Source: a virus (lineage: Duplodnaviria > Caudoviricetes). Taken from it: a DNA stretch of 63,942 nt. The stretch is taken from IMG/VR virus record IMGVR_UViG_3300012663_000802, positions 1 through 63,942 of that record. The stretch is one strand, 5' to 3'. The number at the start of each line of letters is the position of its first letter. Within the stretch, counting starts at the first letter, position 1. A program made the position numbers and the translations under genes. Positions 41,899 to 61,750 of this stretch are shown here, one piece after another. The notes beneath the pieces were generated by a model. That model was not told the DNA's origin. It searched no databases and saw only the letters and a program-made list of their open reading frames with translations.

Positions 41899-42993
41899 TT
41901 AGTTGGTTTCTGCGATAACTACAGACTGATCTGTGATCAGACCTAGACCGTAGATTGCGTACCAAGCAAGTGCGTGCTCACGACCGAAGTCTAGAATACC
42001 GCCATCGCGGAGTTCTACTGGAAGAGAGATTGCGTGACCGAATGCGTTATCTCCAATGAAGATAGCTGAGTAGCGGTCTGCGTTACCGTTACCTGTCTTG
42101 CGAACAGGAGTTGTGTATCCACCACCAGTTGGGTAGACGATTGACTCTGGAGCAACTGCAGTATCAGTGGTGTAGTTAGTACCTGCACCGTTTGTTACCT
42201 TGTCGATCTGAGTTGTTTCGATGAATACTGTGTCGTATAGACGACCAATTTCACCTAGCATGAAGTTACCTGGAGCTGCGTACTTTGTTACTTCAATGAA
42301 CTCTGAGTTGTCACGAAGCTTACGGCTCTGGTGTGGGTGAACGAACGCAACGTAAGTCTCACCAAGGCGAGGAATGTTACGTGTTGCAAGTGTCTCAACT
42401 GCGTCCTTAACAGTACGTGTTGAAAGGTTGAAGTTACCTGTCATTGAAGCACGTGATGTACCGTTTGTACCGTATGCGTAAAGGTTGTTACCAGCAGCGT
42501 TTGAAGATGTTGAGTATAGACCTGAGCGATCTTCACCGTAGATTACAGATGAAGCGGCCATTAGTGTGTCACGAGCCTGACCATCAAGGTATAGGGCCAT
42601 GTTACGTCCTAGAAGACGTGAAGCTGATGCCATAACGTCATCGAATGATGCGTTAAGTAGTAGCTCTGATACAGCAATTGCAAAGCCGTGCTCTGCTACT
42701 GTGATTGAGAACTGCTGTGCTGTTAGTGCGTTTGTTGACATACGGACACCTTCAACTAGTGAAGATGCTGATCCGAGGTTGTTATAACGCATGAAGTTGA
42801 TCTGGAGACCAGGTGCAACTCCTAATTCTGTCTTCTTAACAGCGAACTGCTCGAAGCGTAGAATTGGCATTGACTGGAAAAGGATTTCCTTTGACCAGAT
42901 TGTCTGAATTGCTTGTGTTAGCTGGCTGTTAGAGCCAGAGTATGCTGTAGGTGCTGCGGCTAGATTGCCGGTACCTGTTACGGCTGATGCCAT
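41899..42993 (-). CDS. major capsid protein (N4-gp56-like family)
   Basis: YVAFVHPHQ, GEIGRL, ELRDGGILDFGREHALAWY; follows scaffold; biased codon use. Confidence 0.93.
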   Translation of the reverse strand: MASAVTGTGNLAAAPTAYSGSNSQLTQAIQTIWSKEILFQSMPILRFEQFAVKKTELGVAPGLQINFMRYNNLGSASSLVEGVRMSTNALTAQQFSITVAEHGFAIAVSELLLNASFDDVMASASRLLGRNMALYLDGQARDTLMAASSVIYGEDRSGLYSTSSNAAGNNLYAYGTNGTSRASMTGNFNLSTRTVKDAVETLATRNIPRLGETYVAFVHPHQSRKLRDNSEFIEVTKYAAPGNFMLGEIGRLYDTVFIETTQIDKVTNGAGTNYTTDTAVAPESIVYPTGGGYTTPVRKTGNGNADRYSAIFIGDNAFGHAISLPVELRDGGILDFGREHALAWYAIYGLGLITDQSVVIAETN

Positions 42994-46505: not shown

Positions 46506-48086
46506 TTAAAAGAAAGGGCTGGCGCTTACTTCAATAGTAGGCATAACCATTTCTTGGGTCAAAGAACAAGCTAAAGCTAAAGAATCCACAAAATCGTCGT
46601 GTGCGTGCGCCTCATCAGGAGCAGCCACTAGAAAGTTAGGGCCTTTGTACTGAACCTCGGCATCAGTCATCTGCTGATAGAACTTCTTCCAAATTCGTAG
46701 GCGCCTTGTCTTAGCATGTGCGGGCCAGGAAACCATTTGACGTTGGATTAGTGCTTGAAGGTGCTTCCATCGTCTAGATTGTTCAGATGGGCTAGAAGTA
46801 ACAGATATAACTTCAGCTCTTGGCATAAGGATCTTTAGTCGCTGTGCAACAGCATCTCCGACACCGTTAGCGTCTACACCAATAGCTAGCACGTCGTAGT
46901 TAGATAAAAATTGTTGAATCTGAAAATACTGCTCTTCCCAGTCATCGCCTTGAATCTCTAACCAGTTTAGAACTCTATGATCGTAATAGCCAAACTCATC
47001 CGGCCTATCCCAGTCAACCCACACAACAGTTACAACTGTTGAGTCCATCTTACGAGCCGGGTCAATTCCTACAACAACAGGCGATCTGAAATGGCTCTTA
47101 ACAAGTTCTTGTGAGGTATCACCAAGGTCATCCATAATTGAGGATGTAATGAACATACCGCGTTCTAGCAACCACTTACAGTTATATGAGAGCTGGAACT
47201 CGTCTGAGTCCTCTCCGATACGTAGCATTTCTTTTCTAATAAACTTCTCGTAGTTAGTTTGCACTTTTGCTACATCTCTCCAGTCCCACTGAAAATGATT
47301 TTGCTTAGCTCGTGCACCCATCTGTCTACGCTTATTTAATTGAATAGCTCGATAAAAGTTGTTCTTGTGTGTAGTAGGTGTGCCTGTTTTAACAATAGTA
47401 GCGTTATAGTACGCACCCATAGGGGCAATAGACTTTGACACTACAAAGTCGTCTGCTTCTTGACACTCATCAATGATAATTAAATGGAAAGACTTAGATT
47501 CAATCTTAGCTCGTGGGTTAGCTGTCATCATCATAAGAGTAGAGCCAGACTTCTTAAGTTTAATATTCTTAGTTACTCCAGGAGTCTTTGTTGGAATATC
47601 GTCTATCTCAGGATCTCCAAAGACCTCCATAGCACGCTCACTAGTAAGTCGTGATACTGTACGCCCGTATAGGGTTTCTACCTGGTTTTGTACGGGGGCA
47701 AACATTCCCACCCAGATACCATCACCAAATTTACCTAGCAAATCTGGGTACATTATAGCTAGACGTGGAAGAATAACCATAAGAGTTGCCACCGTGTTAG
47801 CAATAGTTTCAGACTTACCTGACTGACGAGAAGCAAGAGCTGTAACTTCTTCTCCATCATTAATAATTACTGACTCAATAACACGACGTGCAAGAGGCTT
47901 CTGATAGTTATGAAGCTCATGTCCGACCAACAGCTCCATAAACTGCATAATTTTGTCTACAAGTACTTTTACAAATTCTTTTGATAGTTCGGACAGCTCT
48001 TCTTCAGGCTCGTCTAAACCTATCTCTTCAGCATCAATATCGTCTTCGGCATCAAATTCTTCTAGATCTTCATCTAAATCGCTCAC
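46506..48086 (-). CDS. terL: terminase large subunit
   Basis: ASRQSGKS Walker A, IIIDE Walker B, GTP coupling motif, VGIDPA and HDDFVDS nuclease motifs. Confidence 0.95.
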   Translation of the reverse strand: MSDLDEDLEEFDAEDDIDAEEIGLDEPEEELSELSKEFVKVLVDKIMQFMELLVGHELHNYQKPLARRVIESVIINDGEEVTALASRQSGKSETIANTVATLMVILPRLAIMYPDLLGKFGDGIWVGMFAPVQNQVETLYGRTVSRLTSERAMEVFGDPEIDDIPTKTPGVTKNIKLKKSGSTLMMMTANPRAKIESKSFHLIIIDECQEADDFVVSKSIAPMGAYYNATIVKTGTPTTHKNNFYRAIQLNKRRQMGARAKQNHFQWDWRDVAKVQTNYEKFIRKEMLRIGEDSDEFQLSYNCKWLLERGMFITSSIMDDLGDTSQELVKSHFRSPVVVGIDPARKMDSTVVTVVWVDWDRPDEFGYYDHRVLNWLEIQGDDWEEQYFQIQQFLSNYDVLAIGVDANGVGDAVAQRLKILMPRAEVISVTSSPSEQSRRWKHLQALIQRQMVSWPAHAKTRRLRIWKKFYQQMTDAEVQYKGPNFLVAAPDEAHAHDDFVDSLALACSLTQEMVMPTIEVSASPFF

Positions 48087-51826: not shown

Positions 51827-54757
51827 TTATTTCCCAGCGTTAAACTCGCGGGCTTTTGCTGCTGCTTCCATGATTTGCTGGCTTCCAGCCATATCACCTA
51901 GAATACGTGTGGCAGCAGGACCTGCACCATCAGTATCAATTGGTGCAGACTTAGGAGATCTAGGACCTGCCTTAGGAAGACCACCTGGAGCAGGAACTAC
52001 TGCACGAGGATGTTCGCTACCTTTAGCGCGATTCTCTTGTGAAACGTTGTTTGCTAGATCTGCGTCGGTACTACCAATGTTTCCAATCCAACGTTGATCT
52101 AAGAATCCCCATTGTTGTCCGCTACGCTTAAACTTCTTACCAGTAGTAACATCTACGCCAAAATTAGCTTTAGAAGCCTCAGCACGTGCGTTTTCTTCTT
52201 CACGCTCTAGTTGACCAAAATCAAGCATAGGTTGAACAGCAGTACTAGGCTTCTTTTCCAAATTGATGCGGCTGTACTTGCTAGCTTCAGTAGATGTCAT
52301 TGTTGGCTTGCTTAGAGCAGGAGCTTCACCTGTAGGCATAGCTGCTTGAATCCACTCTTGGCGCTCTGTCAAAGGAGCCTGTGTTGGACTAAAAGGAGTA
52401 GCGTATGCTGTATGACCGGGAATTAAAGGCAATTCTTCCGTAATAATCGCATTAGTTCTTTTATTTCTTCGTGCAGGTCTTGCTTGAGATCCTGTAGTTG
52501 GTTGTGGACCTTCTGCACCATCTGCTGGGGCACTTACAGGTTCAAAGAACTTTTGAAGAGGCTTTGGCATCATATTACCTGTAGCGGTACGACTTCTAAC
52601 AAATAAACGCTTAGCACCCTTAACACCCACTGTGGGTGGGTTAGGGATAGGGTTGCCTACATGATCTACACGATATGATGGCATTTCTGTAGGTTTAGTA
52701 TTATCAACTGAACCAAATCCACGTCCACCAGCTGAACCGGTGTTTTCATCTTGATCACGAAGTTTTTCGCTAAGAGCTGTATTTTCTGCCGCTGTGCCAG
52801 CAACTACTTTCTTTCCAGGTTGAAATGCTGATGCGCCATCTGTAGCTGTAGATTGTAAAGTAGCCGTTTCTGTAGGAATTGCTACATCCTCATCAGCTCT
52901 ACCCAAATATGCTGGGTCTACTCGTTGTCCAGGAGTACGAGGAGCCGCACCAAATCTAACATCTCTTGCAGCTTCTCCAACACCACTTACTGGTCCGCTA
53001 CCAACTGTAGCGGCCAGCTGCTGAGAAACTAGGTGGCTAACATCTTTAATTACGTTTTTACCGCGACCACTACGCTTGTAGACTGTTGTGTCTTCTGCAG
53101 GTGTGTCTGTAGTCTTGAAAGTATCTTGTGGTTCTGTAGTTACTTTTTTAGGCTCATCAAGTGCACGACCTGTAGTTGGATCAGTTATTTGAGTACTACT
53201 TATTCTACCTTTTGTAGAAACACCGCTTGCAGCTGCAATCTGTGCCATAGCTCGAGCAGCTTCTCCAATTTCTGCACGACTCTGCTTAGATCCCATAGGA
53301 AGAGCTTCACGTGTCTGTTGAAGAGTATAGTCATAAGCAGGCATAGGAGCAGTTTGTGGGTTAGCGTCTAAAGGTAGAACGCTAGATCGATAGCTCCAAT
53401 TACCTGGTCGTTGAGCTAAATTTTCACGTCCTGAATTTCCATCAGTTGGGGTTTTCCACCAACCAATATGTGTAGGAACAGTAGTTTGCAGGTTACCACG
53501 ACTATCTTTATAAACAGATGTGTTGGTTCCTTTTGTTGCAGTAAGGTCTGGTAACCCCTCGCCTGTTATAGGCATGTTGTGAACAGTAGACCACTCACTA
53601 ATAGGATGAGTTGCTCCTGTTTCAGGATGTGTAAAAGTATCGTTTTCATGCAGATGTTGCATGCCGTAGTTGACAGGTGTAGCTGAATCTTTTTTATCTT
53701 GCAAAAGAGCGTGACGACTTTCTACAACATCATACTCAGTCATCTTCATTTTACGAGCATAGGTAGAAATATCATCTGGGTTTTCTCCTGCGGCCTGTAA
53801 ACGACCTAGGCGTTCGTAGTGACCGCCTTTGTGAGCAAAAGGAGATGCGTAATCTTCAGAACCTTGTAGTCCTGCAAGACGATTAGCCCTACCTGAGTTC
53901 TTTTGCCAATCTAAATCATAGAGGCGATGTGCACGTGCAATATCTGCAGGTACTTCCATCTCTCCGTGTACAGGGTGGTTAATGATTTCTGAAGGTGTGC
54001 CTTCTTGCATACCTGGCAAACCCATGCCTGAAGCAAGACGTCCTTCAGTATTTTCTTGAACTGCAGGTGATGCAGGTTGAGCACGGTTACCACGAACCGC
54101 TCCTGTTGGAGCAGGAGTAAAGATTCCAGTACTTGTGCTTGGTGACCAACTGCCCTTAGGTTGATCCATGTCAGCAACTGGTATGTTAACTGGTTCAAAT
54201 TTAGATTCTTGTTCTGGTTTTTGATTAACAAAGCTTGCGTTACCAGCACGAATTGCTACAAGCTCTTCTACAGTAACACCTGCTGCTGCTGCATCTACTG
54301 CTGCTTGTTCTGAAGGTGTCTTCTCACGACGAGCTTCTGCAATATCTTTTTCATCAAGTCTTGCGATAGAGTTCTTAACTCCTCGACTAACTCTTCCTTG
54401 CCCACTCTTACCAAGATCTTCAGCTGTATTTAGTGTGTAGGCTTGAGTATCTTGCTTAATGTCACCTGTAGCAGGATCAAAGCTAACCTCTGTACCTTTA
54501 TTTGGACCAGACTGAACTGTATGCTTTTTTGCATCGTGTTTTGTATCTGGACCTTTAAGATCTACATCACAAGTTGCGCACTTCTTTGTTACATTGCCTC
54601 CACCTAAAGTAACTTCAATTGGCGTACGTGGGGCAATACCCTCTGTTGCTTTAACAACTTTTTCTACCTTAGTTGCTTTAGCAGCTTTCTTTGAATCTCT
54701 GCGAGCAGCACGATTAGCAGGATTGTTCTTATTTACTTTTTTACCACGCTCAGCCAT
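51827..54757 (-). CDS. large, mostly disordered hypothetical protein
   Basis: 976-aa ORF rich in Pro/Ala/Gly/Thr. Confidence 0.8.
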   Translation of the reverse strand: MAERGKKVNKNNPANRAARRDSKKAAKATKVEKVVKATEGIAPRTPIEVTLGGGNVTKKCATCDVDLKGPDTKHDAKKHTVQSGPNKGTEVSFDPATGDIKQDTQAYTLNTAEDLGKSGQGRVSRGVKNSIARLDEKDIAEARREKTPSEQAAVDAAAAGVTVEELVAIRAGNASFVNQKPEQESKFEPVNIPVADMDQPKGSWSPSTSTGIFTPAPTGAVRGNRAQPASPAVQENTEGRLASGMGLPGMQEGTPSEIINHPVHGEMEVPADIARAHRLYDLDWQKNSGRANRLAGLQGSEDYASPFAHKGGHYERLGRLQAAGENPDDISTYARKMKMTEYDVVESRHALLQDKKDSATPVNYGMQHLHENDTFTHPETGATHPISEWSTVHNMPITGEGLPDLTATKGTNTSVYKDSRGNLQTTVPTHIGWWKTPTDGNSGRENLAQRPGNWSYRSSVLPLDANPQTAPMPAYDYTLQQTREALPMGSKQSRAEIGEAARAMAQIAAASGVSTKGRISSTQITDPTTGRALDEPKKVTTEPQDTFKTTDTPAEDTTVYKRSGRGKNVIKDVSHLVSQQLAATVGSGPVSGVGEAARDVRFGAAPRTPGQRVDPAYLGRADEDVAIPTETATLQSTATDGASAFQPGKKVVAGTAAENTALSEKLRDQDENTGSAGGRGFGSVDNTKPTEMPSYRVDHVGNPIPNPPTVGVKGAKRLFVRSRTATGNMMPKPLQKFFEPVSAPADGAEGPQPTTGSQARPARRNKRTNAIITEELPLIPGHTAYATPFSPTQAPLTERQEWIQAAMPTGEAPALSKPTMTSTEASKYSRINLEKKPSTAVQPMLDFGQLEREEENARAEASKANFGVDVTTGKKFKRSGQQWGFLDQRWIGNIGSTDADLANNVSQENRAKGSEHPRAVVPAPGGLPKAGPRSPKSAPIDTDGAGPAATRILGDMAGSQQIMEAAAKAREFNAGK

Positions 54758-56802: not shown

Positions 56803-57369
56803 TTAAGCTTCTTGTACCTGTGTAATGATCTTACCACCAGAATATATATCGTGCTTTATAGCAGCCTCTATAGCTTTTCGCAGAATTTTTTCTGCGGCCT
56901 CTGGAGTAGTTGCCTTTTCATAGTTAAGAGCCTCTAAAGCGCCCAAAGCAATATCTCCACCGCTACCTGCGTAATAAACGCGGCGGGCTTCTCTATCCCA
57001 AGAGTAGTCATTAAAAATCGGGTAGATAACACCACGAACCGAAACTAGAAGGTTAGAGTCGTGAAATGCTGCGTCTCCATCTTCCTTACCTTCAAAGCCG
57101 GCATCTTGAAATGCTTTACGCATCGAAGGAATAAAAGTTTTAGTCATAAAGGTATCTAAGTTATCTGTAGCACGTGGCTTTGGTGGTTTCCAACCAAACT
57201 GTGTAATATTTCCACCACGAGATGCACCAGAGACAGCTATCAGTACACCGTTGTTATTAATAATTTTTGGTGTTGCTAAATCCATGTAGCGACCATCTTC
57301 ATCAGATGCACGACTATCGCATCCGATTACGGTCCAGCCATCACCCTGTATAGCAGCAAGCGTAGTCAT
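56803..57369 (-). CDS. Ntn-hydrolase protease, HslV/proteasome beta-like
   Basis: N-terminal (M)TT, DSR, K at position ~33, AGSGG..ALG, DIYSGG. Confidence 0.88.
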   Translation of the reverse strand: MTTLAAIQGDGWTVIGCDSRASDEDGRYMDLATPKIINNNGVLIAVSGASRGGNITQFGWKPPKPRATDNLDTFMTKTFIPSMRKAFQDAGFEGKEDGDAAFHDSNLLVSVRGVIYPIFNDYSWDREARRVYYAGSGGDIALGALEALNYEKATTPEAAEKILRKAIEAAIKHDIYSGGKIITQVQEA

Positions 57370-57404
57370 TAGAACCCTCTCTTGTATAGCTATAGGATAG
57401 CAGA

Positions 57405-57869
57405 CTAATCTATGGTACCTTGCCCAAAGCTCTGCTCGTTACTTTGCGGAGGGGTTCCTGTAACAGTATCCCACATACCACCTGTATACCTAGCTAGCAC
57501 GTTGTCAATATAGTCAGTTGTAGAGCCGTAGTTTCCTAGCTGATCCCATTCGCCCTGAGATACTCCAGGGTAGCCTACAACTGTATCGTCACGCATTAGG
57601 ATTACTAAATACTCTTGCTCTTTGTTGTAACCTAGCTTTTGAGCTCTAGAACGCCCACTGTTCCTTGATGGGGCTGGATCGACTACTTCATAGCCAACAC
57701 CAAATTGAGGGTCCACAATAGAGGTGTTACCAACAAGTTGGTTCATTCCGTCGTTACGTCCACCAAAGTAACCTGGAGGAGGATCTATTCCATACTTAGA
57801 CTTATAGGCAGCAGTCATTGCTGCTTTGTACTCAGGTGTATCTGAGAAGAATCTATGTGCTCTTGCCAT
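57405..57869 (-). CDS. KTSC-like domain protein
   Basis: RAQKLGYNKEQEYLVILMRD...YPGVSQGEWDQL. Confidence 0.55.
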   Translation of the reverse strand: MARAHRFFSDTPEYKAAMTAAYKSKYGIDPPPGYFGGRNDGMNQLVGNTSIVDPQFGVGYEVVDPAPSRNSGRSRAQKLGYNKEQEYLVILMRDDTVVGYPGVSQGEWDQLGNYGSTTDYIDNVLARYTGGMWDTVTGTPPQSNEQSFGQGTID

Positions 57870-57878
57870 AAGAGTATG

Positions 57879-58049
57879 CTACTCCTTACCGGCCCAACCG
57901 CCACCTTTAAAGTGAGCGGGTGTGGCTGACCAGACGCGGGACATATTTGTGCTACACCCAGAACACATAGGCAGGGTATCCTCATGGAAAGAGCGTTCAA
58001 ACTCTACAGTGATTCCACACTTGTCACATTTAAAATCATACTTTGGCAT
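57879..58049 (-). CDS. FmdB-family zinc ribbon protein
   Basis: MPKYDFKCDKCG...CSGC...FKGGGW. Confidence 0.85.
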   Translation of the reverse strand: MPKYDFKCDKCGITVEFERSFHEDTLPMCSGCSTNMSRVWSATPAHFKGGGWAGKE

Positions 58050-58144
58050 TAGTCTTGGCACTCCTTGCATCTAGCAGTCGGGTTCTTAGTTCCTACTTCT
58101 ACTTTGAACATAACTCCACAATTGAAGCAGAGCACATTCAACAT
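58049..58144 (-). CDS. small zinc ribbon protein
   Basis: MLNVLCFNCG...RCKECQD with GAAGGA Shine-Dalgarno. Confidence 0.55.
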   Translation of the reverse strand: MLNVLCFNCGVMFKVEVGTKNPTARCKECQD

Positions 58145-58206
58145 CAATCCTTCTTGTTCCATAATTTCCAAACTTTCGGCGGGCAACTTTTGGTGTGTGT
58201 ACAGCG

Positions 58207-58278
58207 CTGATCTTCCTGGATTCGAACCAGGGACAACTCGATTAACAGTCGAGGGCTCTGCCGCTGAGCTAAAGATCA
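58207..58278 (-). tRNA. trnN: tRNA-Asn(GTT), CCA not encoded
   Basis: Cloverleaf: acceptor TGATCTT/AAGATCA, D arm GCTC/GAGC, anticodon arm CTCGA-CTGTTAA-TCGAG, T arm CCTGG-TTCGAAT-CCAGG, discriminator G. Confidence 0.96.
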
Positions 58279-58283
58279 ATAAA

Positions 58284-58379
58284 GGACCTGTAAGCCCAGT
58301 GCGCCTTAGAGTGCTACGGCGTATCCGTTAACTTTCGCTAACTCACCAGCTTTTACTAGATTGCGGTACTTACAGGTCC
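58284..58379 (-). ncRNA. unidentified 96-nt multi-stem RNA
   Basis: 11-bp closing stem GGACCTGTAAG/CTTACAGGTCC enclosing three hairpins, one with a GAAA tetraloop; promoter directly upstream. Confidence 0.65.
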
Positions 58380-58389
58380 GTTAATTAAT

Positions 58390-58398
58390 ATTCTACCA
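58390..58398 (-). promoter_or_regulatory. extended -10 promoter of the ncRNA-tRNA transcript
   Basis: TGGTAGAAT, same as the motif at 49258-49266. Confidence 0.65.
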
Positions 58399-58402
58399 CA
58401 AG

Positions 58403-58936
58403 TTACTTGATTTCAATAACCTTTGCCTTCTTCTCCTCGGGTAGCTCTTGCTCCAAAGTAATTCGTAGCAATCCATCCTTAAGCTCTGCACCCTTGACGA
58501 CGATATACTCAGCTAGAGCGAACTCTTGCTTGAAGTCACGGGTAGCGATTCCCTTATGGATAGCTTCTTCCTGAGGTGCCCCTAATTCGCCTTCTACGGT
58601 CAACTGGAGCTCTTTGACACTGATCTTGATATCTTCCTTAGCAAAACCAGCTACAGCCAGCTCTAGGACGTATGTGTCCTTGTTTTTGTAGATGTTGTAT
58701 GGAGGATACCCGCCAGTTTTTACCTCAGCACTGATGTGCTTGAAGGTGTCAAATAGAGGATCGAAACCAATTGCCCAGCGATTGAACTGAGGAAAGAGCG
58801 AATTGATTGTAATTACCTCTGGTTTTGTGATTTTAGGGTAATGACCCCACTCTTTTGGATTCTTTGGTCCAAATGGATCAGTGTAACGATCCATGTGATT
58901 GTCTTTATTGTTTCCTTGCATAGGCATATTAGCCAT
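58403..58936 (-). CDS. Hsp20 small heat-shock protein (IbpA-like)
   Basis: YPPYNI, LAVAGF, HKGIATRDF, AELKDGLLRI.L, IEI. Confidence 0.93.
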   Translation of the reverse strand: MANMPMQGNNKDNHMDRYTDPFGPKNPKEWGHYPKITKPEVITINSLFPQFNRWAIGFDPLFDTFKHISAEVKTGGYPPYNIYKNKDTYVLELAVAGFAKEDIKISVKELQLTVEGELGAPQEEAIHKGIATRDFKQEFALAEYIVVKGAELKDGLLRITLEQELPEEKKAKVIEIK

Positions 58937-58997
58937 TTTTATCTCCTTAGACGATAAATTAGTTAAAAGAGGACTCATTTGAGCTCCTCTAATCAAT

Positions 58998-59006
58998 ATT
59001 ATAGCA
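58998..59006 (-). promoter_or_regulatory. extended -10 promoter for hsp20
   Basis: TGCTATAAT. Confidence 0.65.
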
Positions 59007-59299
59007 CATTTAGCCACTGTATCGCATTAAATACACCTCTAAAAATATTTTACCTCCTCTCTATGATCATAGTTCCCCCGATTCCCGCATAAATTTCCCC
59101 AAACTATGATCCTAGTCACACATGATGGGATAAATCGGACATAGGTGGGCCACTGTGTAGCTCAAAATACACTCAACCACTCGCGTTACCTGGTGGACAT
59201 TTGGGTTAAAAGGGATTTAAGGGTGGCAGGGGGTAAAAGCCACAACTAAAATAGTCGCGTACAGCACAAAGGAGAGGGGAGAGAACCTACCCGCATTAC

Positions 59300-59425
59300 T
59301 GGTAGTAGTATCGCCCCAAAAGGATACCTAGACTACTCCGTGTAGCCCGTAGCCCTAGCCCTTCAGGGGTAGTGCGTCATAGCACACTAGGGCACGGGGA
59401 GACCCCCGATACTATCTGTATCGGT
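59300..59425 (+). ncRNA. structured leader or ncRNA ahead of the first plus-strand gene
   Basis: CCCGT-a-GCCCTAG/CTAGGGC-ACGGG three-way junction; CCGATAC-tatct-GTATCGG hairpin. Confidence 0.45.
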
Positions 59426-59440
59426 AGCGAAAGGCGTCAA

Positions 59441-59971
59441 ATGTCAAAGACATTGACTCTCGCGGTTGCTAAGGCAATCATCTCACACTCAGAGGACACC
59501 TCTCACTCCATCACAGAGTTTATCAAACTCTTTAATGGTAAGACAGAGTTGTCTGACATCTACACAGGTGGCAAGTACAAGCGTGCCATCAACGCCTCCC
59601 GCGTATTCGGTGGCTATCTGTCTGGCAAGTTGCAGATAGAGCCTACCAAGTGGGAGGACTTGACTCAGACATTTTACAAGATGCCTGAGGAGTGCGCTGC
59701 TGTTATCGCTATGGGCGGTGATGTCCTTGCAGGGCTTAACACTCTCAAGGGCAAGGTTGATGCAGCCTCAGCAGAGGCAGTAGCAACACGCCGTGCCAAT
59801 GGCAAGGCACACGCCACATCTATCACGACCATCACCAAGGGTCGTGAGGCTTTCATCAAGGCAGGCTTGCCTGCTAGTGAAGCCATCAAACTCCTTGAGG
59901 CAGAGGTCAGCGCATTGACCCTGCTCCTTGAGGAGACACGGGCGAACGCGGAGAAGGCTTTGGTAGCCTAG
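59441..59971 (+). CDS. hypothetical 176-aa protein, first gene of the plus arm
   Basis: GAAAGG Shine-Dalgarno before ATG 59441; followed by terminator. Confidence 0.85.
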   Translation: MSKTLTLAVAKAIISHSEDTSHSITEFIKLFNGKTELSDIYTGGKYKRAINASRVFGGYLSGKLQIEPTKWEDLTQTFYKMPEECAAVIAMGGDVLAGLNTLKGKVDAASAEAVATRRANGKAHATSITTITKGREAFIKAGLPASEAIKLLEAEVSALTLLLEETRANAEKALVA

Positions 59972-59987
59972 TCTTTGCTCGTAGTGG

Positions 59988-60017
59988 AAGGGCGGGGGAT
60001 AATACTCCCGCCCTTTT
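59988..60017 (+). terminator. intrinsic terminator
   Basis: AAGGGCGGGGG-ataata-CTCCCGCCCTTTT. Confidence 0.75.
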
Positions 60018-60054
60018 GCTATGCGCATAGTAACTATGAGCATAATCGGGCTGG

Positions 60055-60470
60055 GGAATCTAGATTAACCTAGGTGACATATGTCTGCCGCACAGTGCTA
60101 TGGAACTGCTAGCACGCCCAAGAGTAGTCTTGGTATCCATTTTCGGTGTCCTGCTAACGAATAGGCTCCTAACTCTCATCATTGGGAGTTGGGAGTCTAT
60201 TCAGGCTACTACCCACCCACAACTCTTATCATTGAGAGTACGACCAGGCTATGGACTAGGGGTGGGGTCTGTTATCAGGTAGTTAGCGATGGATACATAG
60301 GTCGTGCATAGCACTAACAGCAGAGCACATAAAAGTATTCCTATGTATCTCTCACTACCTATCAGGTAGCAAGTGATGGAGACACAAGACTTATGACTGA
60401 GGCTTCTTAGTGAGCGTGTATGGTCTCTGCTCCTTGTGTCTCTCTCACTCTCTATCTGAGAGTGCTCAAC
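60055..60470 (+). ncRNA. candidate large structured ncRNA
   Basis: No credible ORF; 19-bp hairpin with G-U pairs, repeated ATCA/TATC loops, two covarying stem-loop units. Confidence 0.6.
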
Positions 60471-60488
60471 ACAAACATTGGAGGCTGT

Positions 60489-60617
60489 ATGTCTGTACAA
60501 GCAAGGCTGTGCTGTTCTGTCTGTAAGGAGTATTCCTATCCTTCACAGGCTATCTTCCTCTTCTCTCTATCTACAGGTGCTTATGTGTGTAAGCCTTGTA
60601 AGATGAGTAACAAATAG
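60489..60617 (+). CDS. small zinc-finger protein
   Basis: GGAGG Shine-Dalgarno; CSVC...CKPC. Confidence 0.55.
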   Translation: MSVQARLCCSVCKEYSYPSQAIFLFSLSTGAYVCKPCKMSNK

Positions 60618-60660
60618 GTTTCCCCGCCTATTTTCTGCCGTTGCCCTGTTTTATGGGACG

Positions 60661-60690
60661 CCTCCTGAGTATGAGGAATACAAACTGCTC
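60661..60690 (+). promoter_or_regulatory. H-type pseudoknot in a 5' UTR
   Basis: CCTC/GAGG stem, loop GAGTA pairs with downstream TGCTC across an A-rich linker. Confidence 0.5.
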
Positions 60691-60718
60691 ACCCAACCAA
60701 CTACCGAAAGGAAATAAA

Positions 60719-60901
60719 ATGGCAACAAAATGTGCAGTTAAGTTTTGTAACAACACTGATTTAGTCTATAGCGGTGTTGACGCATTTATGCTTGGCGGTA
60801 TCCCTACCGAGAAGATTTGCTACACCTGTGGCAATAGTTATGCCCAAAAAGGCGCAATCTACGAAGAAGTTAAAGAAGCAATAGAAAGGCTAACGCTATG
60901 A
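60719..60901 (+). CDS. small zinc-binding protein
   Basis: GAAAGGA Shine-Dalgarno; CAVKFC...CYTC. Confidence 0.7.
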   Translation: MATKCAVKFCNNTDLVYSGVDAFMLGGIPTEKICYTCGNSYAQKGAIYEEVKEAIERLTL

Positions 60902-61089
60902 AGTGTTATGACTGTAAGGCACAGATAGATGATGCTATTGCCTATGAGGCACACATCTTGTGCTATCCCTGCTATCACATCTGGTCTAAAGCAGATACAG
61001 ATGCAAGACTAACCCTATCTATGAAAGGAGAGAGTAATGAACGAAATAGAGTTATCACCGACAACCGAGAAACTATTGTGGTTGCTTAA
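60898..61089 (+). CDS. small zinc-binding protein
   Basis: CYDC...CYPC; ATGA coupling. Confidence 0.65.
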   Translation: MKCYDCKAQIDDAIAYEAHILCYPCYHIWSKADTDARLTLSMKGESNERNRVITDNRETIVVA

Positions 61090-61121
61090 TGCAATCCTAT
61101 CTATGAAAGAAGAGAGTAATG
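61014..61121 (+). repeat. 26-bp direct repeat carrying Shine-Dalgarno and ATG
   Basis: CCTATCTATGAAAG(G/A)AGAGAGTAATG at 61014-61039 and 61096-61121 (25/26 identical). Confidence 0.85.
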
Positions 61122-61373
61122 TGTAATCCCTTTGATGGCACTCAGTTATGTGCCAAAGTTGACCCCGACCTTTTCTTCCCTGAAGATCGGAAAGACTATA
61201 AACCTAGCATCGCACAGGCAAAAGCCCTGTGTGCTCAATGCCCTATGCTTGCTGCTTGCAGTAAGTATGTAAATGAAACCCCCGGCCTTTATGGCGTGTG
61301 GGCTGGCAAATGGTTAGACGGAAGCGGCTATACAAGCCCAGCCTCTTCCTTAGTTACTAGAAAGGTAGCATAA
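61119..61373 (+). CDS. whiB: WhiB family transcription factor (second copy)
   Basis: C...DPDLFFP...CAQCPMLAAC...GVWAG. Confidence 0.9.
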   Translation: MCNPFDGTQLCAKVDPDLFFPEDRKDYKPSIAQAKALCAQCPMLAACSKYVNETPGLYGVWAGKWLDGSGYTSPASSLVTRKVA

Positions 61374-61534
61374 TGGTACTAGATAATGGAACAACGCTTG
61401 GCATAATGATTGCATTGCTCGGTGCAATGACAGTTATGTGTCTATTTTGGCGTGAGAACATACGCCTAACCAAAGAGGTTAGACGCCTACGGGTAGCACT
61501 ACGAGATGAAAGGATGACCCGCGTCAATGGATGA
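61373..61534 (+). CDS. 53-aa single-pass membrane protein (not in ORF track)
   Basis: Shine-Dalgarno and TAATG coupling; hydrophobic helix then basic coiled coil. Confidence 0.65.
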   Translation: MVLDNGTTLGIMIALLGAMTVMCLFWRENIRLTKEVRRLRVALRDERMTRVNG

Positions 61535-61652: not shown

Positions 61653-61687
61653 TTTTATCTGAGGGGTCTGCAAGATACGCAGACACA

Positions 61688-61728
61688 GGCGGGTGGAGGT
61701 TTGAGGGAGCCTTCACCCGCCCATTTTT
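61688..61728 (+). terminator. intrinsic terminator
   Basis: GGCGGGTGGAGGTTT-gagg-GAGCCTTCACCCGCC then ATTTTT. Confidence 0.75.
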
Positions 61729-61750
61729 ATCCCTACACGAAAGGATTACA

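What the first reader, a model, noticed from the sequence alone, without database searches (positions are those of the whole stretch)
60055..60470. Candidate large ncRNA with two covarying stem-loop units and a possible kissing loop
Seen: two units 87 nt apart, each TATCAGGTAG-NN-AG(C/T)GA-T-[11-bp stem]-loop-[stem']-C-TCACT. The stems differ but both pair (GGATACATAGG/CCTATGTATCT; GGAGACACAAG/CTTGTGTCTCT), which is covariation. The loops (38 and 44 nt) are unrelated, each holds a small hairpin, and AGCAGAG (60319-25) in loop A is complementary to CTCTGCT (60425-31) in loop B. AGTGCTATG (60094-102) can also pair with CATAGCACT (60307-15). Upstream is a 19-bp hairpin (60159-60202) whose imperfections are all G-U on the plus strand, which favours an RNA-level structure. 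I do not recognise the family. Inference: an early phage RNA acting as scaffold, oligomer, decoy or guide carrier, possibly with the 176-aa protein upstream.
Basis: partly seen in the sequence, partly recalled or inferred. Interest (0 to 1): 0.85.

Follow-up and report, generated by a model that had tools for sequence, protein, structure and literature searches.

The report
Structured leader RNA of freshwater phages
The two repeated stem-loops are real and belong to a previously undescribed, roughly 415-base folded RNA region at the head of an early gene cluster in a group of uncultured freshwater phages; what it does is not yet known.

Summary
The two units (60276-60365, 60363-60458) and the upstream hairpin (60160-60201) are real. 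Relatives conserve them with compensatory base changes. All wobble pairs read as G-U only on the plus strand.

They are parts of one non-coding region, about 60047-60464. It has:
- a 5' three-way-junction domain;
- a 141-nt core (60142-60282), 140-142 nt long in 15 distinct variants;
- terminal hairpins with a constant 23-bp stem and interchangeable tips.

The region follows a terminator and a dyad motif. It precedes the ribosome-binding site of small Cys-rich early ORFs. It is found only in uncultured freshwater viral and metagenome contigs. In five complete ~100-kb relatives all unit and core matches lie at one locus. Rfam 15 and cultured phages gave no match.

- **Kissing loop:** at chance level (469 of 2000 shuffles), and the two tip types occur without each other.
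- **176-aa protein:** no link is supported.
- **Most likely role:** a cis-acting early-operon leader with hairpins that process or stabilise the mRNA just before the ribosome-binding site. This mechanism is inferred, not shown.
- **Not excluded:** a processed, free-standing modular RNA.

The parts
59985..60019 (+). GC-rich hairpin plus T-run, probably the terminator of the upstream 176-aa gene (59441-59971)
   Evidence: Inverted repeat I3. Terminator-like alignments. An equivalent hairpin precedes the element in every relative. The terminator scan does not list it; its loop appears to exceed that scan's 8-nt limit.
60019..60045 (.). Two dyad elements, CTATGCGCATAG and CTATGAGCATAA. Putative promoter or operator, with CATAGT or CATAAT as a possible -10.
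   Evidence: One search gives the positions. The motif is conserved in 20 of 24 loci examined. It was found at the RNA locus in 4 of 5 complete relatives, as an inverted pair in three of them, with three further one-mismatch hits elsewhere and none in G005. The promoter role is inferred: the sigma-70 scan found no site here.
60048..60119 (+). Domain I, a 5' three-way junction. Closing helix GGGC/GCCC, hairpin 60059-60074, small hairpin 60077-60086, hairpin 60095-60115.
   Evidence: Per-sequence folds of 19 leaders show the same layout with different sequences: GCCGA/UCGGC against UCUAG/CUAG; GUGCUA/UAGCAC against GGUGUA/UACACC, CUGGUA/UGCCAG and CUAUC/GAUAG. One search counts 3 compensatory pairs in the first hairpin. 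The alignment is out of register for the second hairpin, so that one was judged by eye.
60142..60282 (+). Conserved 141-nt core, ending in TATCAGGTAG
   Evidence: 15 distinct full-length variants are 140-142 nt long. There is one full plus-strand CM hit per locus, 110-169 bits in 20 loci and 31-50 bits in 6 distant ones.
60145..60210 (+). Domain II. Helix P0 pairs 60145-60153 with 60202-60210 and is invariant.
   Evidence: RNAalifold. Pair counts: P1 is 98.6% paired with 6 compensatory pairs; P0 is 100% paired but does not vary.
60204..60282 (+). Domain III, a conserved block with invariant ATCATTGAGAGT, GACCAGG and TATCAGGTA. Its fold is unresolved.
   Evidence: It is 79-80 nt long in 21 distinct variants. 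RNAalifold finds no consensus. Hairpin 60222-60239 is 76.9% paired, no better than shuffles. An alternative helix shows no covariation.
60276..60365 (+). Unit A. Stem CAGGTAG / AGCGA / GGATACATAGG (60291-60301) pairs with CCTATGTATCT (60340-60350) / TCACT / CTACCTATCAG. Tip 60302-60339 is type alpha.
   Evidence: CM R2 scores 47.3 bits on the plus strand and 32.2 on the minus strand.
60363..60458 (+). Unit B. Upper stem 60378-60388 pairs with 60433-60443. Tip 60389-60432 is type beta.
   Evidence: CM R2 scores 67.9 bits on the plus strand and 41.3 on the minus strand. The unit is identical in L006 and L039.
60446..60464 (+). Alternative local hairpin CACTCTC-TATCT-GAGAGTG, which competes with the base of unit B
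   Evidence: Read from the sequence. A (G)AGAGT follows the last unit in relatives. L030 has ACTATC...GATAGT at the same place, which is a single compensatory case.
60480..60606 (+). GGAGG ribosome-binding site (60480-60484) and a 38-aa Cys-rich ORF (60490-60606), the first cistron after the RNA
   Evidence: No Pfam or PHROG hit. The same ORF follows the element in L002, L003 and L006.

Best explanation
Region 60047-60464 encodes one plus-strand, multi-domain structured RNA. It forms the 5' leader of an early operon of small Cys-rich proteins, with WhiB further downstream. The virus is an uncultured ~100-kb freshwater phage, probably of Actinobacteria.

Its 23-bp stem (CAGGUAG / RGUGR / 11 bp) is constant and covaries. 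Its tip is an exchangeable expansion of about 24 to about 155 nt.

Shown:
- The structure is conserved, strand-specific and non-coding.
- All unit and core matches in complete relatives lie at one locus.
- It always lies between a terminator plus dyad motif and a ribosome-binding site.
- Units are gained, lost and swapped between relatives at the repeated TATCAGGTAG.

Inferred:
- Transcription starts at the dyad motif.
- The conserved domains I-III bind a host or phage factor that sets expression of the operon.
- The long hairpins next to the Shine-Dalgarno sequence are cut or used as end-protecting structures by a double-strand RNase (RNase III type). This would separate the leader from the mRNA and give the first cistron a defined, stable, accessible 5' context.
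For: - **Covariation.** Unit stem: 96.7% paired, 9 of 23 pairs compensatory, 0 of 500 shuffles. Core P1: 6 compensatory pairs, 0 of 500 shuffles.
- **Strand.** G-U pairs lie with G on the 5' arm. Every place scores higher on the plus sense, for example 88.8 against 47.2 bits. The plus-strand fold is stronger.
- **Not coding.** The frame ending at the TAG of CAGGTAG has internal stops in 9 of 16 variants, and 1-nt length changes shift it.
- **Context.** The order terminator, dyad, leader, core, units or ribosome-binding site holds in all 16 close and 12 distant loci read.
- **Spacing.** A Shine-Dalgarno sequence plus start codon lies 20-26 nt after the last unit in 10 of 19 loci scanned, and 31 nt after it in the window.
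- **Units between ORFs.** This is seen in L002, L006, L007, L004, L010, L030 and L043, which argues for an mRNA-level role.
- **One locus.** In five CheckV-complete relatives units occur 1-2 times and the core 0-1 times, plus one weak second core hit about 11 kb away in G004.
- **RNA libraries.** Contigs from four metatranscriptome studies cover 59308-60284 and 60372-60458. One piece ends at 60458, the last base of unit B, and another starts at 60473. The tool rates this as a weak hint only.
Against: - No transcript start, end or cleavage site is shown. The RNA-library data are contigs and may include DNA.
- The sigma-70 consensus scan found no promoter at 60016-60046. One RNA-library contig bridges the terminator (59958-60123).
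- RNase III cleavage is inferred only from stem length and position.
- Units occur only once or twice per genome, so they are not a general intercistronic signal.
- Domain III has no supported fold.
- Same-type units are more alike than the neighbouring domain III in 17 of 19 pairs. This suggests the tips have functions of their own, which a mere processing site does not explain.
Confidence: 0.45

Rival explanations
1. A free-standing or processed large non-coding RNA acts in trans. The ~230-nt body (domains I-III) carries exchangeable tip modules that work as decoys, aptamers, guides or assembly contacts against host factors or defences.
For: - The region is large and multi-domain, with strict length conservation: the core is 140-142 nt and domain III is 79-80 nt.
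- Tip types are shared between phages with diverged cores. They are more conserved than domain III in 17 of 19 pairs, for example 96.7% against 70.4%.
- Unit and core matches sit at one locus per genome.
- RNA-library contigs stop at 60458 and restart at 60473 (weak).
Against: - No terminator lies between the last unit and the ribosome-binding site.
- Units also lie between ORFs, away from the core.
- Loop-loop complementarity is at chance level, and the alpha and beta tips occur singly.
- No motif is common to all tips.
Confidence: 0.25
2. A processive antitermination leader, working like HK022 put RNA. The nascent core would bind the transcribing RNA polymerase and let it read through downstream terminator-like sites of the early operon.
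For: - The element lies promoter-proximally, once per genome, at the head of a multi-gene operon.
- The core holds two similar elements, AACTCTCATCATTGGGAGT and AACTCTTATCATTGAGAGT, 50 nt apart (repeat D3).
- Terminator-like sequences follow: 60609-60636 after the first ORF and a strong hairpin at about 61683-61730.
- The features of put RNA are recalled, not taken from a call.
Against: - The second element's hairpin is not supported by covariation.
- The core is about twice the size I recall for put RNA.
- There is no sequence or model comparison with put RNA, and no functional data.
Confidence: 0.15
3. A DNA-level element: a MITE-like or cassette-type mobile palindrome, recombination site or replication origin. 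The hairpins would matter as DNA, not RNA.
For: - Units and a small-ORF cassette are present or absent between close relatives, bounded by direct copies of TATCAGGTA(G).
- Terminal inverted arms enclose a variable interior.
- Unit types are distributed out of step with core similarity.
Against: - Wobble pairs are one-sided: G-U on the plus strand would be C-A on the other.
- Minus-strand scores are lower at every place.
- Compensatory changes maintain pairing.
- Units occur only 1-2 times per genome, all in one orientation next to a ribosome-binding site.
- Single-strand DNA folding of the plus strand is not excluded by these data.
Confidence: 0.08
4. Protein-coding: the 60-aa ORF 60100-60282, or small ORFs within the units.
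For: An ORF spans the core and ends exactly at the TAG of CAGGTAG. The frame is open in 7 of 16 variants.
Against: - Internal stops occur in 9 of 16 variants, and frame-shifting length changes are present.
- No conserved start codon or ribosome-binding site is seen.
- Variation follows base pairing, not codons.
Confidence: 0.02

Closest known systems
RNase III processing hairpins of the phage T7 early region (recalled knowledge; no call)
   Same: Both are long, imperfect hairpins with internal loops at fixed places. They lie in the leader and between early cistrons, just upstream of ribosome-binding sites, and are similar to one another within a phage.
   Different: There is no sequence relation and cleavage is untested. 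Here there are only 1-2 per genome. The tips are large (about 24 to about 155 nt), of several conserved types, and exchanged between phages. They are attached to a 230-nt conserved multi-domain body.
Extended start-associated sequences (ESAS) of Cluster K mycobacteriophages (PMC3203893, passages read)
   Same: Both are actinophage repeats made of imperfect inverted repeats around a variable spacer. They sit immediately upstream of translation starts in one orientation, and their function is unknown.
   Different: ESAS have 17-bp arms and a 4-13-bp spacer. They are tied to a 13-bp SAS and occur at roughly half of the 11-19 SAS sites per genome. Here the stems are 23 bp with 24-155-nt tips, occur 1-2 times per genome, have no SAS-like motif and show RNA-level covariation. 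ESAS consensus sequences were not compared.
PeSL promoter-early stem-loops of T4-like phages (PMC4122927 abstract read; PMC2839356 seen in a listing only)
   Same: Both are repeated short regulatory sequences that bound small-ORF cassettes. They appear to serve as points of recombination that shuffle early genes.
   Different: PeSLs are composite terminator/promoter motifs. Here no promoter-like site lies in the units, no U-tract follows the stems, and there are very few copies.
Large ornate RNAs GOLLD, ROOL and OLE (PMC12286853, abstract seen in the listing)
   Same: All are large, multi-helix RNAs of unknown function. Some are phage-associated and were first seen in lake metagenomes.
   Different: There is no Rfam match. 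This RNA is smaller (about 415 nt) and continuous with a coding operon. No evidence for self-assembly was found, since the loop complementarity is at chance level.
HK022 put antiterminator RNA (recalled knowledge; no call)
   Same: Both are promoter-proximal, cis-encoded, conserved structured RNA at the head of an early phage operon.
   Different: Size and architecture differ. The second hairpin is not supported here. Nothing was tested.

Membership tests
Any Rfam 15 family | Covariance-model score at or above the family's gathering threshold | tested here: not met
   searched 59000-61500 on both strands with permissive filters. It returned 8 matches at E up to 10, all below gathering. None lies on the plus strand within 60040-60470.
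T7-type RNase III processing site | About two turns of double-stranded RNA with internal loops, located in a leader or intercistronic position | tested here: met
   The stem has 23 pairs with two fixed internal loops. It lies 20-31 nt before start codons.
T7-type RNase III processing site | Cleavage by RNase III at a defined position | not testable with these tools
   Only contig ends at 60458 and 60473 in RNA libraries are available, which is a weak hint.
ESAS of Cluster K mycobacteriophages | 17-bp imperfect inverted repeats with a 4-13-bp spacer, immediately upstream of a 13-bp SAS (GGGATAGGAGCCC) and the start codon, at many sites per genome | tested here: not met
   Arms of 26 columns (23 pairs) and tips of about 24 to about 155 nt. 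Copy number is 1-2 per genome. No SAS-like motif was seen in the sequences printed. Definition from PMC3203893.
PeSL (T4-like phages) | Composite early promoter plus terminator stem-loop | tested here: not met
   The promoter and terminator scan found no promoter-like site in 60273-60470 and no U-tract terminator after either unit.
PeSL (T4-like phages) | Marks the boundaries of indels or cassette swaps between related phages | tested here: met
   A small-ORF cassette and units are inserted or absent between copies of TATCAGGTA(G) in L002, L006, L007, L039 and the window.
CRISPR array or phage repeat mimic | Short identical direct repeats separated by unrelated spacers whose ends do not pair | tested here: not met
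   The sequences between the conserved junctions pair with each other, forming an 11-bp covarying upper stem. There are only two copies. The only CRISPR-DR hit lies elsewhere (61158-61194, 17.2 bits against 39).
Protein-coding gene | Open frame conserved among relatives | tested here: not met
   Stops occur in 9 of 16 variants.
HK022 put RNA | Two adjacent conserved stem-loops that act in cis on RNA polymerase | tested here: inconclusive
   The first hairpin is strongly supported. The second is not. Activity is not testable here, and no put model was at hand.

The most novel reading that the evidence does not exclude
This would be a new class of large modular phage RNA. A conserved ~230-nt, three-domain body is expressed first in infection. 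It carries one or two plug-in hairpins whose tips (at least five recurrent types) are themselves conserved functional RNA modules. The modules are exchanged horizontally among phages, for example as decoys or aptamers for host proteins or defence systems. The body would then be a display scaffold, and the tip repertoire would adapt to the host.
Probability: 0.2. Interest if true: 0.85.

Novelty: new variant of a known kind. Interest (0 to 1): 0.62.

Why it matters
If real as described, this is an undescribed structured RNA family of unusual size, with several helices supported by covariation and strict length conservation. It occupies a single locus at the start of the early programme in a widespread group of freshwater phages, whose hosts are among the most abundant lake bacteria.

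Early-operon leaders decide host takeover, and almost nothing is known about RNA-level control in actinophages. The exchangeable, separately conserved hairpin tips are not explained by known leader or processing-site models. They could point to a modular RNA strategy.

The covariance models and alignments made here would let the family be collected and tested directly.

Tried and rejected
**Searches that found nothing**
- Rfam search: nothing.
- blastn of 59900-60750 against 50,697 phage records: no match.
- Genome-contig scan: 4 hits, all chance, so no cultured or MAG genome was found to hold the core by this exact pattern.
- Literature search for three motif strings: 23 papers, 10 listed, none of those about phage RNA. 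A broader search gave nothing on this element. Supplements are closed and were not seen.

**False positives that I dropped**
- L017-L020 (tandem repeats in coding DNA).
- L026, L028, L033, L040, L041 and L044.
- L047-L050.
- L054 and L057.

**Ideas tested and rejected**
- Kissing loop and the 9-mer long-range pairing: chance level.
- Spliced RNA: the 87-nt skip in an RNA contig carries the L039-type core differences, and L039 DNA lacks unit A. It is a relative, not splicing.
- 60-aa ORF: rejected.

**Attempts that gave nothing usable**
- Structure of the 176-aa protein: AlphaFold model pLDDT 44.8, unusable, so no fold search was made.
- Homology among upstream ORFs: none across five groups.
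- Streptomyces phages BRock and LuckySocke (major capsid protein 70-72% identical): no unit hit. Core hits were only 17.5-17.6 bits, E about 0.04-0.05, taken as noise.
- Domain III secondary structure: three attempts failed.
- Formal pair counts for domain I beyond its first hairpin: the alignment was out of register.
- RNA-library parts without cover (60459-60472 and 60626-61272) are not evidence of absence.

**Considered from memory only and set aside**
- Integron attC, Correia or MITE elements, type III toxin-antitoxin RNA repeats, Y RNA, 6S RNA, known self-cleaving ribozymes, and a 9-nt match of one tip to a conserved 16S region (expected by chance among roughly ten tips).

Full report
**What the window is.** The window is a 63,942-base IMG/VR virus record, estimated 65% complete.
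- The minus strand up to about 59,017 carries late genes: terminase 46506-48083, portal, major head protein 41899-42990.
- It also carries an Hsp20 gene, an HslV-like peptidase and tRNA-Asn.
- From 59,372 onward the genes run on the plus strand and are small. One is a WhiB regulator at 61119-61370. From my own knowledge, WhiB is typical of phages of Actinobacteria.
- The major head protein is 70-72% identical to those of ~113-116-kb Streptomyces phages such as BRock and LuckySocke.
- The stretch, or part of it, is held by 20 of 24 listed runs from 14 studies. Nearly all are labelled freshwater, lake or estuary.

**The observation.** The finding lies in a non-coding gap. This gap separates a 176-aa ORF (59441-59971, no Pfam or PHROG hit) from a 38-aa Cys-rich ORF (60490-60606) with a GGAGG ribosome-binding site at 60480.
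- The plus strand of 60040-60480 folds far better than shuffles (z = -6.43) and better than the minus strand.
- No Rfam family matches.

**Relatives.** I collected relatives with the upstream protein and with short exact DNA patterns.

| Scan | Stretches found | True members |
|---|---|---|
| IMG/VR, first core pattern | 11 | 11 |
| IMG/VR, second core pattern | 13 | 9 |
| JGI metagenome contigs | 26 | 20 |
| One genome per prokaryote species | 4 | 0 |
| IMG/VR, unit 3' arm | 18 | 16 |

True and false members were sorted. The alignment changed the picture. The best conserved part is not the units but a 141-nt core, 60142-60282. It is 140-142 nt long in 15 distinct full-length variants and always ends in TATCAGGTA(G/A).

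**Layout of the locus.** The same order holds in every locus read:
1. An upstream ORF of about 165-205 aa.
2. A GC-rich terminator hairpin.
3. Two dyad elements of the form CTATGnnCATAG.
4. A structured leader of about 70-150 nt.
5. The core.
6. Either hairpin units or a ribosome-binding site with a small Cys-rich ORF.

The upstream ORFs fall into at least five groups with no detectable homology. The RNA is therefore not tied to the 176-aa protein.

**Structure of the core and leader.**
Six of its pairs are compensatory, and 0 of 500 shuffles reach this.
- An invariant helix (60145-60153 with 60202-60210) encloses that hairpin.
- The 5' leader folds in each relative into the same three-way junction with different stem sequences and conserved loops. 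This part rests mainly on inspection.
- The 3' part of the core (60204-60282) is 79-80 nt long in 21 variants and has invariant blocks. I could not establish its fold.
- The 60-aa ORF over the core is not conserved: 9 of 16 variants have internal stops.

**Structure of the units.** Sixteen distinct units share a 23-pair stem.
- The stem has a 7-bp base (CAGGUAG / CUAUCUG), a 2x2 internal loop, a 5-bp helix, a 1x1 internal loop and an 11-bp upper helix.
- 96.7% of cells are paired and 9 pairs are compensatory; 0 of 500 shuffles reach this.
- Wobble pairs are one-sided, with G on the 5' arm.
- Covariance models score every place higher on the plus sense.
- The structure therefore belongs to plus-strand RNA, or less likely to plus-strand single-stranded DNA.

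**Tips and modularity.**
- The tips range from about 24 to about 155 nt and fall into recurrent types.
- Unit A's type (alpha) and unit B's type (beta) occur alone in relatives.
- The 7-nt loop-loop match is at chance level.
- Same-type units are more alike than the adjacent conserved domain in 17 of 19 pairs, and close relatives carry different sets of units.
- Units and a small-ORF cassette come and go between direct copies of TATCAGGTA(G).
- Relatives without a unit still close a short hairpin, CAGGTAG...CTACCTG, just before the ribosome-binding site (L010).
- The unit therefore looks like an expansion of a conserved terminal helix.

**Copy number and place.**
- In five CheckV-complete ~100-kb relatives the unit occurs once or twice and the core 0-1 times, apart from one weak second core hit in G004. 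All these matches lie at one locus.
- The dyad motif was found at that locus in four of the five, with three further one-mismatch hits elsewhere.
- The window has exactly two units.
- In several relatives a unit lies after the first or second small ORF rather than next to the core.
- The last unit is followed by a Shine-Dalgarno sequence and start codon after 20-26 nt in 10 of 19 loci scanned. My pattern mislocated four of these loci, and five gave no ORF by my criteria. In the window the spacing is 31 nt.

**Expression.** Only assembled contigs of four metatranscriptome runs could be laid.
- They cover the upstream gene, the leader, the core and unit B.
- One piece ends at 60458, the last base of unit B, and another begins at 60473.
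- By the tool's own warning, this shows presence in RNA libraries but not transcription, ends or strand.

**Interpretation.** The evidence establishes a new, conserved, strand-specific structured RNA region at the head of an early operon. It does not establish a function.
- Position next to ribosome-binding sites, occurrence between cistrons and continuity with the ORFs favour a cis-acting leader.
- The long hairpins would then be cut by, or protect against, RNases. This resembles what I recall of the T7 early RNase III sites. The conserved body would be a binding platform.
- The strict length conservation, the single locus and the separately conserved, exchangeable tips keep open a processed trans-acting modular RNA.
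- An antitermination role is possible and untested.
- DNA-level and coding readings are unlikely.

**Comparison with known systems.** The element resembles T7 RNase III sites and the ESAS repeats of Cluster K mycobacteriophages in position. It resembles PeSLs of T4-like phages in marking cassette boundaries. It fails the defining features of each that I could test. It is best filed as a new variant of phage early-leader and intercistronic RNA structure, with about a one-in-five chance of being something more unusual.

Noticed in passing
window 60019-60045: Two adjacent dyad elements, CTATGCGCATAG and CTATGAGCATAA, lie directly after a terminator. The motif is conserved in relatives although the upstream proteins differ. 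It was found at the RNA locus in 4 of 5 complete genomes. It looks like an operator or promoter for an unknown conserved DNA-binding factor.
   Followed up: partly
window 60619-60636; also L005, L006, L009, L010, L038, L043 downstream of the first ORFs: A conserved linear motif TTCCCCGCCnnTTTTC follows the first small ORF(s). It forms a terminator-like hairpin in the window (AAATAGG/CCTATTT) and in L009, but has no conserved 5' partner in other loci. It resembles the descending arm of the terminator at 60005-60019.
   Followed up: no
window 59441-59971 and the equivalent ORFs in relatives: The gene just upstream of the element is always about 165-205 aa long with its own terminator. It falls into at least five groups without detectable homology. 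This suggests a positionally conserved, very fast-evolving or replaceable first early gene. The AlphaFold model was all-helical but of low confidence.
   Followed up: partly
window 60563-60581: Inside the 38-aa ORF, the sequence CTCTCTATCTACAGGTGCT repeats the 3' end of unit B (60448-60466, 79% alike, repeat D5).
   Followed up: no
window 60490-61089 and relatives: A run of very small Cys-rich (CxxC...CxxC) ORFs of 21-67 aa follows the RNA. They are present, absent or reordered between relatives.
   Followed up: no
window 51827-54754 (-): A 975-aa ORF, with its 243-aa and 322-aa neighbours, has no PHROG match.
   Followed up: no
window 56803-59014 (-): An HslV/proteasome-like peptidase (56803-57366), tRNA-Asn (58206-58278) and an Hsp20 chaperone gene (58403-59014) sit next to the divergent early/late junction.
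   Followed up: no
window 59062-59071: A further palindrome of the same half-site type, CTATGATCATAG, lies in the divergent intergenic region upstream of the Hsp20 gene.
   Followed up: no
L051, L053, L055, L063, L052, L064: Distant relatives keep the end of the core (GACCAGG...TATCAGGTA) and the units but lack hairpin P1. Instead they have a 12-bp long-range helix, GCCACTGGCCTC / GAGGCTAGTGGC.
   Followed up: partly
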